Made by a program: the position numbers and the translations under genes. The notes beneath the pieces are model-generated. The model searched no databases. It was not told where the DNA came from and was given only the letters and a program-made list of their open reading frames with translations. 2,956 bases of DNA from Naegleria gruberi. Its lineage: Eukaryota. This document shows, one piece after another, positions 1-2,956 of the stretch. The stretch lies in the NCBI GenBank assembly GCA_000004985.1, contig GG739240.1. One strand, 5' to 3'. Positions within the stretch are counted from its first letter, which is position 1, and every line of letters starts with the position of its first letter.

Positions 1-760
1 TTTCTTCTTCTTCTGATTCAGATTTTTTACTTGATTTTCTAGTTGATTTTTTTCTGGCTACTCTTGACGGTGGTTCTTCTTCTTCAGATTCGGAATTAGA
101 TTGTTGTTCTTGTTCAAGTACATGTTCTTCTTCTTCTGTTTTTTTCTTTTTAGATGATCTTGTTTCATATTTTCTACCTTCATTCTTGGAGGAGGTATCA
201 ACAGAATTGCTTTTGGAATTTTTTTTGGTTGGTTGTTCATTTAATTTAATAATTCTTGTTTTAAATGTTTTTACACTCTTATCATTCTCGTCAACCAATT
301 CCAACCACTCGTGATCAAGATCAGTGGTTTTACTGAAATCCATTTCTAAAATTCCACACACCTTAAATGACTTTTTTAATTTTTTAATTCCTAAAATGTA
401 AAATAATGATGAAATGTTGGATTTTTTAAATCGTACAACAGATTCACTGATTAGTTGGTTTCCAGTATTCTTGATAGTAATGCTTTTAAAGAGATCAGTT
501 GGTTTTCCCTTAATATTTACAGGGTCCCCTAATTTGTAATAGGTTTCAAAGGAGTTCTCATCTTCTGAATTTTGCTTGTTAGTTGTTTGCTCCGGAATTT
601 TAGATGAATCGGGTGTCGATTCATGAACATCAATTGTTGATTCAGAAGTACTAGTGGACGATGGTAAATTATTGTTGGATTTTGATGATGAAATATTATC
701 TCCAACAACATTTTCTTGTATTTCGTTACTTGTTGATTGTGATGATTCACTTGAAGACAT
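1..760 (-). CDS. Protein-coding gene, N-terminus complete (ATG at 760-758), C-terminus beyond the window start. Ser/Asn/Thr-rich acidic N-terminus, a roughly 110-aa non-repetitive core (…YYKLGDPVNIKGKPTDLFKSITIKNTGNQLISESVVRFKKSNISSLFYILGIKKLKKSFKVCGILEMDFSKTTDLDHEWLELVDEND…), then a Lys/Glu-rich charged tail (…KKKKTEEEEHVLEQEQQSNSESEEEEPPSRVARKKSTRKSSKKSESEEEE…). Function unknown.
   Basis: Hand translation of the reverse complement from 760 gives an uninterrupted reading frame of 253 codons to position 1: MSSSESSQSTSNEIQENVVGDNISSSKSNNNLPSSTSTSESTIDVHESTPDSSKIPEQTTNKQNSEDENSFETYYKLGDPVNIK… An in-frame TGA lies 9 nt upstream of the ATG (complement of 770-772), so this is the first ATG of the frame. 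The start context is A-rich (AAAAAAATGTC), as in yeast. Codon use is AT-rich yeast-like with no CTG codons. The ORF track omitted it, presumably because it has no stop inside the window. Confidence 0.75.
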   Translation of the reverse strand, partial: MSSSESSQSTSNEIQENVVGDNISSSKSNNNLPSSTSTSESTIDVHESTPDSSKIPEQTTNKQNSEDENSFETYYKLGDPVNIKGKPTDLFKSITIKNTGNQLISESVVRFKKSNISSLFYILGIKKLKKSFKVCGILEMDFSKTTDLDHEWLELVDENDKSVKTFKTRIIKLNEQPTKKNSKSNSVDTSSKNEGRKYETRSSKKKKTEEEEHVLEQEQQSNSESEEEEPPSRVARKKSTRKSSKKSESEEEE

Positions 761-930
761 TTTTTTTAGTCAATTTTAATGCCTTATTAAATAAACATCT
801 TTGAAAATTAAATTGTATTCGGAATTTAATGATGAATCATTTTTCACAAAAATTGCATTACTTTTCGGCTGAAAATATTTACCAAATAATTGTCCAATTG
901 TTTTTGGTTTTAAATTATATGTTTTTAGGT
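761..930 (-). promoter_or_regulatory. Probable 5' UTR and proximal promoter of the minus-strand gene. The segment is AT-rich and lies between the ATG and the first repeat copy.
   Basis: Position only: it sits immediately upstream, in the gene's orientation, of ATG 760-758 and contains no ORF. I could not pin down a clear TATAAA. Confidence 0.3.
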
Positions 931-1135
931 TTTGGATCCCATGTCAACCCCTATTTATTAAGCTTTTCTCCTTAAATACATTAACAATATATATCACAAA
1001 TGATGTCAAAAGATGGTGATGGTAATGGGGCACAATATACGGCTGATGTGAAATTGTTAAATATTTATATATATCAAGTTATGATGGTGGCTAGTGGCAA
1101 TAAAATCACTTGATCAAAATTATTTTTGCCGGTTG
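931..1135 (+). repeat. Direct repeat, copy 1 (about 205 bp). It starts TTTGGATCCCATGTCAACCCC… and contains TATATATA at 1067-1074, which is LTR-U3-like if the repeat is an LTR.
   Basis: Base-by-base alignment to 2753-2956 at a constant offset of 1822. There are only two substitutions in the first ~188 bp (1017 g vs t; 1098 c vs t). The last ~17 bp are more divergent (one substitution, one 1-nt T-run indel, then breakdown), which suggests the homology ends near 1135. Confidence 0.9.
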
Positions 1136-1156
1136 ATCAAACCGAAAAACGCGCGG
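1109..1156. promoter_or_regulatory. Cluster of palindromic and CpG motifs at the distal edge of repeat copy 1: TTGATCAA twice (1110-1117 and 1133-1140), GCCGG (1128-1132), CGG-N9-CCG (1130-1144) and ACGCGCGG (1149-1156).
   Basis: The sequence is cacTTGATCAAAattatttttGCCGGTTGATCAAACCGaaaaACGCGCGGaaaag. There are five CpGs in about 30 bp, against roughly one CpG per 80-100 bp elsewhere in the window. The cluster is about 370-400 bp upstream of the minus-strand gene's ATG. Confidence 0.2.
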
Positions 1157-1231
1157 AAAAGTTAAAAATAGATTCAAGTTGATGTGAAAATGGCTCAGAA
1201 TCGAAAGGATTAACAAAGCTTACTACTATAT

Positions 1232-1265
1232 TGGAAGTGAAAGTGCCATTTGGCACTCACTTCCA
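1232..1265. repeat. Interrupted palindrome that could form a hairpin: TGGAAGTGA-aa-GTGCCA-tt-TGGCAC-TCACTTCCA. The stems are 9 + 6 bp with a 2-nt bulge and a small loop.
   Basis: Read directly: the reverse complement of 1257-1265 (TCACTTCCA) equals 1232-1240, and the reverse complement of 1251-1256 (TGGCAC) equals 1243-1248. Confidence 0.85.
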
Positions 1266-2095
1266 TCAACTTTATCATAGAAATCACTCTTGAAACATGA
1301 ATTGTACTATAATGTGTGAGTAACATACTGTTGTTGGAATTGATCAATAACTCTATGAAATGACTGAGATGGAACGTAAACCTTCTTCTAAGGTAAGTTA
1401 GTGGAATTTAAGATACTGAGCCATGAATGTGAAACTTTCTCAGATTGTTCTCCTCATCTAGGGAAGTGTATTCATATTTGATACTTGTATGATATTTTGA
1501 AAAATGAATGAGATGGAGTATATTCTATATGTTGAAATATGACAATTTGACAGATTGTTATTATTATCATATTGAATTCGATTCTAAAACACTAAAAATG
1601 ATACCAGTTGTATATCAGTGTGACTAAACGTACATGGTAAAGTTACACGATAATAGGATGTACTTTCATTGAGATAGAGTGTACACTTGGATATAATCAC
1701 TCTTGACATTGAACATTTACTGATTGACTGAATGTAAGTTTCATGAATTGTTTCAATACGTATATGGATGTATATAAATGATGTATATAATGTGTGTTAT
1801 CAATTCTAGACTAATTTCATATAAAATAAGTGAGTTGGAGCATAATCTTTGATTTTATGTCAAAGTTCTATAGTAAAATGATAGAGTTGACAACTCAATA
1901 TCTACTGAACCAATATTAATGAAATTGATATCATATGCTAATTAGAGTGTCTACATATCATGGTATTAATTTCAGTGAAAATGGAGTTGTTTCTGGTCCC
2001 TTCAGATTTCCATCCATTCTCCTTGACAATCACCATGTACTATCCACTGGATGCATTTCTTGAAATGAAAATATATAATTTGATGAAAGTTCACT

Positions 2096-2116
2096 TTATT
2101 TGAGATGTAGAACACG
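2096..2116 (+). repeat. 21-bp near-identical direct repeat, member A: TTATTTGAGATGTAGAACACG.
   Basis: It matches 2398-2418 (TTATTTGAGATGTTGAACATG) at 19 of 21 positions. The spacing is 302 bp, about two array periods. Confidence 0.7.
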
Positions 2117-2397
2117 ATATTATCATTTATTTTGAGATTAGTAATTTTTCCTATAGTATCATCCTTAATTGTCTTAATTGACCTAAAGAGGTAAAGGAGA
2201 GATTTCAAAACATAAAATAAATGATATTTACGAGATGTACTATTGATTTCCAACCGATTGATATGTATTTTGTAGATTGAGGATGAAGTTCTGAAGAGTT
2301 CCTCCTTAACTTACCAAGTCAACCCTGATATTTCACCCTTTACCTTAGTGAATGATGGAATGTTCACTAAAACGTCTAAAAACTGAATCATATACAT

Positions 2398-2418
2398 TAT
2401 TTGAGATGTTGAACATGG
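2398..2418 (+). repeat. 21-bp near-identical direct repeat, member B. It is followed by ACATGGTGGTAAAGTTGCA (2413-2431), which also matches ACATGGTAAAGTTACA at 1632-1647.
   Basis: Direct alignment with 2096-2116, and with 1632-1647 (a 3-nt GGT indel and one substitution). Confidence 0.7.
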
Positions 2419-2752
2419 TGGTAAAGTTGCATAGAGTGGTCATTTTCCAGATTTTCATCCATGTCCACAGTTGACTAGATGGCATGTTAGAGTTGAAATC
2501 GTGAATATAAAAGTGAAAATAAACTTAATATTCTATCTATACTCATCGAATGGAGCATTTTCATATATAATTTATTGATTGAAGTGATGTATTTGGGTTT
2601 GGATATTAATCTGCGCTCTTAAACATCATTATTTATAAGACTTCATATACATCAATATATATCATTAGATAGGAAATGTTCACGCCTACATGTTGATATA
2701 TAATTTTAATATTGGTTGCTATCAAATAATGGAGATAATCAACTCGTTTGGG

Positions 2753-2956
2753 TTTGGATCCCATGTCAACCCCTATTTATTAAGCTTTTCTCCTTAAATA
2801 CATTAACAATATATATCACAAATGATGTCAAAAGATGGTGATTGTAATGGGGCACAATATACGGCTGATGTGAAATTGTTAAATATTTATATATATCAAG
2901 TTATGATGGTGGCTAGTGGTAATAAAATCACTTGATCAAAAGTATTTTGCCGGTGT
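2753..2956 (+). repeat. Direct repeat, copy 2. It is cut by the window end, so its true 3' boundary is unknown.
   Basis: About 98% identity with 931-1135. The flanks upstream of the two copies do not match each other (the ten bases upstream of each copy, 921-930 vs 2743-2752, are only about 50% similar). Confidence 0.9.

What the first reader, a model, noticed from the sequence alone, without database searches (positions are those of the whole stretch)
931..2956. About 98%-identical 205-bp direct repeats exactly 1822 bp apart, bounding an ORF-free interior
Copies at 931-1135 and 2753-2956 differ by two substitutions over ~188 bp, then diverge in the last ~17 bp. The sequence upstream of each copy is unrelated. 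The interior has no coding capacity. Either of two explanations would be notable in a gene-dense, yeast-like genome. (a) They are LTRs of a non-autonomous LARD/TRIM-like retroelement; supporting this, a TATATATA lies inside the repeat at 1067-1074, as in a U3 promoter, and the repeat is LTR-sized. (b) They are successive junctions of a ~1.8-kb higher-order tandem unit, organised like the C. albicans RPS units with internal 'alt' sub-repeats (organisation only; I am not claiming sequence homology). Copy 2 is cut by the window end, so the true length and 3' boundary are unknown.
Basis: seen in the sequence. Interest (0 to 1): 0.6.

Follow-up and report, generated by a model that had tools for sequence, protein, structure and literature searches.

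The report
Naegleria direct repeats around non-coding DNA
A real pair of about 205-bp, 97-98% identical direct repeats brackets 1.6 kb of non-coding, internally periodic DNA beside an orphan gene of the amoeba Naegleria gruberi (not a yeast); it looks most like the start of an ordinary local tandem duplication, not a retroelement, but the window ends too soon to prove either.

Summary
The repeat is real: 925-1133 aligns with 2747-2954 at 97.1% (98.0% from 931), offset 1822 bp, BLAST E 1e-78. The upstream flanks are unrelated. The interior has no ORF over 83 aa, no Pfam match in any frame, no protein homologue, no tRNA and no Rfam match. Two details in the finding are wrong. The genome is Naegleria gruberi, not yeast-like. 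The copies do not diverge in the last 17 bp (one substitution and one 1-bp indel, then 10 matches), so homology runs to within 2 nt of the window end and the repeat's true length is unknown. LTR hallmarks that could be tested failed: no PBS-like TGG next to copy 1, no adjacent polypurine tract in either orientation, no gag/pol remnant. The 1822-bp unit is built from old, degenerate tandem sub-repeats (pairs of about 300 bp, four monomers of about 155 bp, significant periodicity of about 150 bp). My best reading, at about 0.4 confidence, is the left edge of a head-to-tail duplication of a 1.8-kb non-coding unit in a duplication-prone intergenic tract. No sequence beyond 2956 or other genomic copy could be retrieved, so the LTR-like, dispersed-repeat and artefact readings stay open. 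Interest is low.

The parts
2..760 (-). 5' part (253 codons) of an orphan Ser/Glu/Lys-rich protein gene. It runs off the window start. Its ATG lies about 165-170 bp from repeat copy 1.
   Evidence: The translation is 251/253 identical to NCBI 'predicted protein [Naegleria gruberi]' P0001, 273 aa. No Pfam family.
925..1133 (+). Direct repeat copy 1. The solid core runs from 931; 925-930 is a fuzzy edge.
2747..2954 (+). Direct repeat copy 2. It is cut, or ends, 2 nt before the window end.
1134..2746 (.). Non-coding interior (about 30% G+C) with periodicity of about 150 bp.
   Evidence: No ORF over 83 aa, no Pfam match, no homologues, no tRNA or Rfam match. Periodicity z = 4.6-4.7, reached by 0 of 200 shuffles.
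1350..1975 (+). Four degenerate head-to-tail monomers of about 155 bp (1350, 1494, 1655, 1816). Each opens with an AAATGA-TGAGATGGAG-like motif. Together they also read as one pair of about 320 bp (1466-1750 and 1794-2067).
   Evidence: Self-BLAST 38.3 bits, never reached as second-best hit in 200 shuffles. Alignment shows 43-58% pairwise identity. The motif occurs 5 times against 0.24 expected, but it was defined post hoc.
2093..2700 (+). Two degenerate head-to-tail units of about 300 bp (2093-2393 and 2394-2700). The alignable cores are 2093-2289 and 2394-2590, at 61% identity.
   Evidence: Self-BLAST 42.5 bits, reached by 0 of 200 shuffles. Alignment.
2592..2604 (+). Exact copy of the 13-mer TTTGGGTTTGGAT that opens repeat copy 2, lying 155 bp upstream of it. 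Copy 1 opens with TTAGGTTTTGGAT.
   Evidence: 13/13 match, E = 2 on its own, so suggestive only. Sequence read.

Best explanation
The window shows the left edge of a head-to-tail (tandem) duplication of a non-coding unit of about 1.82 kb. It lies in an intergenic tract of Naegleria gruberi, about 170 bp upstream of an orphan gene. The tract has duplicated repeatedly. First came monomers of about 150-155 bp, then blocks of about 300 bp, both now decayed to about 50-60% identity. Most recently the whole 1822-bp unit (about 12 monomers) duplicated. Only its first 208 bp of the second copy (2747-2954) fall inside the window, so they look like a short repeat bounding an interior. The inferred mechanism is unequal crossing-over or replication slippage between short similar sequences: the TT[A/T]GG[T/G]TTTGGAT motif sits at 925, 2592 and 2747. 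No function is required; this is neutral turnover of tandem-repeat DNA. Shown here: the repeat, its offset, the non-coding interior, the nested sub-repeats and the absence of LTR hallmarks. Inferred: that homology continues past 2956, and the mechanism.
For: (1) Homology runs to within 2 nt of the window end, so nothing shows the repeat is only about 205 bp. (2) The unit is made of older tandem duplications. The pair 2093-2289 / 2394-2590 scores 42.5 bits (0 of 200 shuffles reach it). The pair 1466-1750 / 1794-2067 scores 38.3 bits. Four monomers of about 155 bp share a motif. An unbiased spectral test gives a period of 148-150 bp with z = 4.7, reached by 0 of 200 shuffles at any period from 100 to 420, while the adjacent gene shows none. 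A locus with this history is the kind that duplicates again. (3) The 13-mer at the start of copy 2 recurs 155 bp upstream. Copy 1's left flank has a near-match, as expected for a microhomology-mediated junction that is in register with the monomers. (4) The retroelement hallmarks that could be tested are absent. (5) The Naegleria gruberi genome is TE-poor: 0.28% in one study, and a five-pipeline library reports only four Gypsy families and no structure-defined LTR family (bioRxiv 10.64898/2026.06.24.734286). (6) If the repeat really ended at 2954, the window would have to end within 2 nt of it by coincidence (about 0.1% for a randomly placed window end). Two terminal mismatches or an indel in continuing homology are at least as probable. 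This last point is my inference, not a tool result.
Against: Only 1.11 units are visible, so tandem recurrence is not demonstrated. The last two window bases mismatch. Three of the four differences within 931-1133 fall in the last 36 columns (P about 0.02, post hoc), which could mark a true end of homology near 1133/2954. TRF finds no long-period array even with lenient settings. A profile of the monomers detects no copy outside its training set. The sub-repeat evidence shows only that the interior is repeat-derived. Internal regions of non-autonomous LTR elements can also carry tandem repeats.
Confidence: 0.4

Rival explanations
1. The two copies belong to a short dispersed repeat family (solo LTRs or an unclassified element of 200-300 bp) that inserted twice in one intergenic tract. 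Alternatively, copy 2 is the 5' end of a longer element lying to the right of the window. In either case the interior is simply the DNA between them.
For: The left boundary is sharp with unrelated upstream flanks. The terminal mismatches and the clustering of differences near 1120-1135 are compatible with an end of homology there. Most repeats in N. gruberi are unclassified (PMC12344493).
Against: There are no terminal inverted repeats beyond what T/A runs give by chance, and no recognisable target-site duplication. A tRNA-like A/B-box resemblance seen by eye does not fold as a tRNA, and ARAGORN finds none. Two same-orientation insertions 1.6 kb apart are improbable in a genome with 0.28-5% repeats. 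No other copy was found anywhere that could be searched, although those collections do not hold the Naegleria genome. The same window-end coincidence applies.
Confidence: 0.2
2. It is a non-autonomous LTR-type retroelement of about 2.03 kb, between TRIM and LARD in size. The two repeats are its LTRs, and it would be mobilised in trans by one of the Gypsy-type elements of Naegleria.
For: Two direct repeats at 97-98% identity in LTR size range with a non-coding interior. Copy 1 can be read as starting with TG at 933. TATATATA at 1066 is followed by AATAAA at 1099, as in a compact U3-R arrangement. Gypsy-type elements exist in N. gruberi.
Against: There is no primer-binding site. The only TGG after copy 1 is at 1191, 56 nt downstream, and what follows it does not fit a tRNA 3' end. 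There is no CCA beside copy 2 for the reverse orientation. No polypurine tract abuts copy 2: the best one, AAATAATGGAGATAA at 2724-2738, ends 8-16 nt short, and the region right of copy 1 is purine-rich on the wrong strand for the reverse orientation. No gag/pol remnant exists in any frame. The TATA..AATAAA pairing is expected about 0.7 times per window by chance and also occurs on the repeat's minus strand. Five TE pipelines, three of them LTR-structure-aware, reported no structural LTR family in NEG-M. The 3' end of the LTR, the CA terminus and the TSD cannot be seen.
Confidence: 0.15
3. It is an isolated, non-tandem local duplication of about 205 bp, for example from template switching or double-strand-break repair. 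It may be retained because it carries promoter sequence of the adjacent gene.
For: Copy 1 lies about 170 bp upstream of the ATG of the orphan gene. The repeat core is better conserved than its edges.
Against: No gene is detectable downstream of copy 2 on the strand equivalent to the orphan gene. Such dispersed micro-duplications are rare. It requires the same window-end coincidence.
Confidence: 0.12
4. It is an assembly artefact: two alleles or haplotypes, or a collapsed repeat, laid head-to-tail.
For: The window's gene differs from the NCBI N. gruberi protein at 2 of 253 residues, so it comes from another allele, strain or assembly. The differences near the window end include a homopolymer indel (T5 vs T4), which is typical of consensus error.
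Against: The repeat divergence of 2-3% includes clean substitutions in non-homopolymer context (1021, 1098). The junction 2746/2747 lies in ordinary sequence. A haplotype mis-join would normally duplicate flanking unique sequence too, and the upstream flanks are unrelated.
Confidence: 0.08

Closest known systems
Higher-order tandem repeats / satellite-like arrays (monomers organised into longer, more recently duplicated units)
   Same: Degenerate monomers of about 150 bp and blocks of about 300 bp sit inside a unit of about 1.8 kb. The visible recurrence of that unit is far more similar (97-98%) than the monomers are to each other (about 45-60%). The DNA is AT-rich and non-coding.
   Different: Only 1.11 units are visible, so an array is not demonstrated. 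The monomers are much more decayed than in typical HOR satellites, and TRF does not call them. The tract abuts an ordinary gene.
Non-autonomous LTR retrotransposons (TRIM, LARD)
   Same: Two short direct repeats of high identity flank a non-coding interior. A TATA-like run lies in the repeat.
   Different: No PBS and no adjacent PPT are found, and the TG..CA ends and TSD cannot be verified. The size (2.03 kb in total, 1.6 kb interior) is above TRIM and below LARD. The host genome has no reported structural LTR family.
Candida albicans MRS/RPS units with 'alt' sub-repeats
   Same: Only the general organisation matches: a unit of about 2 kb containing shorter internal sub-repeats.
   Different: The organism is from a different supergroup (Naegleria, Heterolobosea). 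No homology was claimed or found. The sub-repeats here are ancient and degenerate, and no array is demonstrated.

Membership tests
LTR retrotransposon, non-autonomous (TRIM/LARD) | Two direct terminal repeats of high identity | tested here: met
   925-1133 vs 2747-2954, 97.1% identity.
LTR retrotransposon, non-autonomous (TRIM/LARD) | LTR termini 5'-TG...CA-3' with short inverted ends | tested here: inconclusive
   TG is present at 933-934, but homology starts at 925-931. The 3' end of the repeat is not visible, because copy 2 is cut at 2956.
LTR retrotransposon, non-autonomous (TRIM/LARD) | Primer-binding site (TGG..., complementary to a tRNA 3' end) within a few nt of the 5' LTR | tested here: not met
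   The only TGG in 1120-1215 is at 1191. There is no CCA in 2690-2760 for the reverse orientation. Caveats: the LTR end is unknown, and no Naegleria tRNA set was available.
LTR retrotransposon, non-autonomous (TRIM/LARD) | Polypurine tract abutting the 3' LTR | tested here: not met
   The best tract, at 2724-2738 (80% purine), ends 8-16 nt before copy 2. The reverse orientation fails as well.
LTR retrotransposon, non-autonomous (TRIM/LARD) | Target-site duplication of 4-6 bp flanking the whole element | not testable with these tools
   The 3' flank lies beyond the window. The contig could not be retrieved.
LTR retrotransposon, non-autonomous (TRIM/LARD) | Further copies or solo LTRs in the genome, with LTRs shared with an autonomous partner | not testable with these tools
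   No accessible collection holds the Naegleria genome. Searches of proteins, metagenome contigs and viral contigs found nothing. The Gypsy consensus sequences fall outside the stored part of the supplementary file.
Higher-order tandem repeat / satellite | Internal monomer periodicity | tested here: met
   Period 148-150 bp, z = 4.7, reached by 0 of 200 shuffles. Sub-repeat pairs are significant. Four monomers of about 155 bp align.
Higher-order tandem repeat / satellite | Recurrence of the long unit is more similar than the monomers are to each other | tested here: met
   97-98% over the visible 209 bp, against about 45-60% between monomers. This holds only for the part of the second unit that is visible.
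Higher-order tandem repeat / satellite | Two or more complete head-to-tail copies of the long unit | not testable with these tools
   The window ends 208-210 bp into the second unit.
MITE / TIR element | Terminal inverted repeats and a TSD around each copy | tested here: not met
   The best candidate (921-932 vs 1139-1150, 11/12) is made of T/A runs and is matched by an unrelated site. No TSD was found.
Structured non-coding RNA gene (two copies) | Rfam match or folding better than shuffles | tested here: not met
   No Rfam match at E<=1 in the repeat. Fold z = +1.75 and +2.12 on the two strands.
C. albicans MRS/RPS | Candida genome context | tested here: not met
   The flanking gene is 99% identical to a Naegleria gruberi protein.

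The most novel reading that the evidence does not exclude
The window catches the edge of a true higher-order satellite array in Naegleria gruberi: nucleosome-length monomers of about 150 bp organised into a 12-mer unit of about 1.8 kb. Such an array could mark a chromosomal landmark such as a centromere or a subtelomere. To my knowledge neither has been defined at sequence level in Naegleria; I did not confirm this in the literature.
Probability: 0.06. Interest if true: 0.6.

Novelty: new member of a known kind. Interest (0 to 1): 0.2.

Why it matters
As it stands it matters little. Local tandem duplications and decayed minisatellite-like tracts are ordinary intergenic features. It is mildly useful as a caution: in TE-poor protist genomes, a direct-repeat pair of LTR size is more likely to be the visible part of a tandem duplication than a retroelement. 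It also corrects the assumed organism. It would matter more if the 1.8-kb unit proved to be a long array, because Naegleria repeat biology is poorly described. It would also matter if it proved to be a mobile non-autonomous LTR family in a genome where structural LTR elements have not been reported.

Tried and rejected
Attempts to get sequence beyond 2956 or other copies all failed:
- The exact-protein look-up of the neighbouring gene's NCBI product (P0001) was not on record.
- The look-up of the 83-aa interior ORF was not on record.
- All ORFs of 28 aa or more from 779-2776, concatenated and searched against 5.8 billion proteins to catch gene-caller ORFs on other assemblies, gave 0 hits at E<=10.
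- Exact 22-mer and 24-mer scans of metagenome contigs (cap exhausted) and viral contigs gave 0 hits.
- The TE library of bioRxiv 10.64898/2026.06.24.734286 is stored truncated. It has no match to the repeat, and the N. gruberi entries fall outside the stored text.
- The N. gruberi genome paper is not held.
- A literature search for Naegleria tandem or telomeric repeats found nothing relevant.

Readings I rejected:
- A decayed paralogue of the neighbouring gene in the interior: tblastn, blastn and tblastx show background only.
- A MITE: no significant TIR.
- A tRNA-derived SINE: an A-box/B-box resemblance seen by eye at about 1088 and 1131 does not form a tRNA, and ARAGORN finds none.
- A structured RNA.
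- Hairpin 1232-1265: not significant, 62 of 150 shuffles as good.
- A clean segmentation into monomers: TRF with lenient settings finds none, the monomer profile finds no copies outside its training set, and the test of whether the repeat is in register with the preceding monomer is only weakly positive (13 of 300 shuffles).

Full report
**Observation**

The direct repeat exists. The repeat finder reports a 202-nt pair at 925-1126 / 2747-2948 with an offset of 1822. A gapped local alignment extends it to 925-1133 / 2747-2954, which is 209 columns at 97.1% identity. Sensitive self-BLAST gives E = 1e-78.

The differences lie at 927, 930, 1021, 1098, 1120 and a 1-bp indel in a T run at 1123. The last two window bases (1134-1135 TG vs 2955-2956 GT) also differ. 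From 931 the identity is 98.0%.

After one substitution and one indel, TTTTGCCGGT matches exactly. Homology reaches to within 2 nt of the window end, and the true length of the repeat is unknown.

The 120 bp upstream of each copy are unrelated: 474 of 500 shuffles score as well. The left boundary is therefore sharp.

**Organism and context**

The minus-strand ORF at 760..2 is 251/253 identical to a 273-aa 'predicted protein' of Naegleria gruberi. This is a heterolobosean amoeba, not a yeast. The protein is an orphan with no Pfam family.

The two amino-acid differences mean the window comes from another allele, strain or assembly than the NCBI reference. Copy 1 starts about 165-170 bp upstream of this gene's ATG.

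**The interior is non-coding**

- The longest start-to-stop ORF is 83 aa and the longest stop-to-stop frame is 102 aa.
- Six-frame translations of 925-2956 match no Pfam family at E<=1.
- All ORFs of 28 aa or more, concatenated, match nothing among 5.8 billion proteins at E<=10.
- There is no tRNA and no credible Rfam match.
- No trace of a paralogue of the neighbouring gene is present.
- The repeat itself folds worse than shuffled sequence on both strands (z = +1.75 and +2.12), so it is not a structured RNA.

**Internal architecture**

The interior is not random sequence. Self-BLAST finds two head-to-tail pairs:
- 2093-2289 / 2394-2590: 61% identity, 42.5 bits.
- 1466-1750 / 1794-2067: 60% identity, 38.3 bits.

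No dinucleotide shuffle in 200 reaches the first score, and none reaches the second as a second-best hit.

The region 1350-1975 resolves into four monomers of about 155 bp with 43-58% pairwise identity. Each opens with an AAATGA-TGAGATGGAG-like motif. That motif occurs 5 times against 0.24 expected, although I defined it post hoc.

An unbiased spectral test on 6-mer pair distances gives a period of 148-150 bp with z = 4.7. No shuffle in 200 reaches that at any period from 100 to 420, and the adjacent gene shows nothing. The 1822-bp unit therefore corresponds to about 12 monomers.

The 13-mer TTTGGGTTTGGAT that opens copy 2 also occurs exactly at 2592, which is 155 bp upstream. Copy 1 opens with TTAGGTTTTGGAT.

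The limits of this evidence are clear. The monomers are very decayed. TRF does not call them even with lenient settings. A monomer profile finds no copies outside its training set. Cross-pair identity is at background.

**LTR hallmarks**

- TG is present at 933.
- The only TGG in the 95 nt after copy 1 is at 1191, and what follows it does not fit a tRNA 3' end.
- No CCA lies beside copy 2, so the opposite orientation fails too.
- The best purine tract (2724-2738) stops 8-16 nt short of copy 2.
- The region right of copy 1 is purine-rich on the wrong strand for the reverse orientation.
- The TATA run (1066-1073) followed by AATAAA (1099) is expected about 0.7 times per window by chance in DNA with 70% A+T. 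The repeat has a similar pair on its minus strand.
- TIRs are not supported.
- The 3' LTR end, the CA terminus and the TSD cannot be examined.

**Literature**

N. gruberi has about 5.1% repeats (PMC6125883), most of them unclassified (PMC12344493). A five-pipeline survey reports 0.28% TEs. Its library lists only four Gypsy families for NEG-M, all found by homology, and no structure-defined LTR family (bioRxiv 10.64898/2026.06.24.734286).

**Weighing the window end**

This part is inference. If the repeat truly ended at 2954, the window would have to end within 2 nt of it by chance, which is roughly 0.1% for a randomly placed end. If homology continues, two terminal mismatches or an indel are needed, which is roughly 0.1-0.6% at the observed divergence. 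The terminal mismatches therefore do not show that the repeat is short.

Three of the four differences within 931-1133 fall in the last 36 columns (P about 0.02, post hoc). This could mean an end of homology, a hypermutable A/T-run, or lower consensus quality near a contig end.

**Verdict**

The best-supported reading, at about 0.4, is the left edge of a head-to-tail duplication of a non-coding unit of about 1.82 kb, in a tract that has duplicated repeatedly at smaller scales.

| Rival reading | Confidence |
|---|---|
| Two copies of a dispersed short repeat, or the start of a longer element | 0.2 |
| Non-autonomous LTR-type element | 0.15 |
| Isolated local duplication | 0.12 |
| Assembly artefact | 0.08 |

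All attempts to obtain sequence beyond 2956, or other genomic copies, failed because no accessible collection holds the Naegleria genome. The decisive test is trivial with the genome in hand: read past 2956 and BLAST the unit genome-wide.

Interest is low, because whichever reading is right it is a known kind of feature. The only reading that would raise it is a true satellite or higher-order array marking a chromosomal landmark in Naegleria, which I put at about 6%.

Noticed in passing
window 2107-2240: An imperfect 134-bp palindrome (49-nt arms at 71% complementarity around a 36-nt spacer; 64% self-complementary overall). Only 1 of 150 shuffles gives as strong a minus-strand self-hit, but the DNA fold is not exceptional (z = -1.38).
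   Followed up: partly
window 1123-1149: A hairpin TTTTT-GC-CGGTT-GATCA-AACCG-AAAAA straddles the last aligned base of repeat copy 1. The equivalent region of copy 2 is cut by the window end, so it is unclear whether the hairpin belongs to the repeat.
   Followed up: no
window 2-760 (minus strand): The neighbouring gene encodes an orphan Ser/Glu/Lys-rich protein with no Pfam family. Its only database relative is the N. gruberi protein, and the window allele differs from that at two residues (T140M, P232S), so the window is from a different allele, strain or assembly than the NCBI reference.
   Followed up: partly
window 1-40 and 2940-2956: The window starts in a (TTC)n-rich low-complexity coding stretch and ends inside the repeat, and its length (2956) is not round. 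It may be a whole short contig or a contig end. If so, the homopolymer indel and the mismatches in the last 37 nt could be contig-end consensus errors.
   Followed up: no
window 1366, 1510, 1671, 1832, 2102: A recurrent motif GAG[AT]T[GA][GT]A[GA] spaced 144-161 bp apart (270 bp for the last interval). It occurs 5 times against 0.24 expected in shuffles. It was defined post hoc and marks the start of each monomer of about 155 bp.
   Followed up: yes
window 1088-1097 and 1131-1143: Sequences resembling pol III A-box (TGGCTAGTGG) and B-box (GGTTGATCAAACC) elements lie 43 nt apart inside or at the end of repeat copy 1. No acceptor or D-stem pairing exists and ARAGORN calls no tRNA, so this is probably coincidence.
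   Followed up: partly
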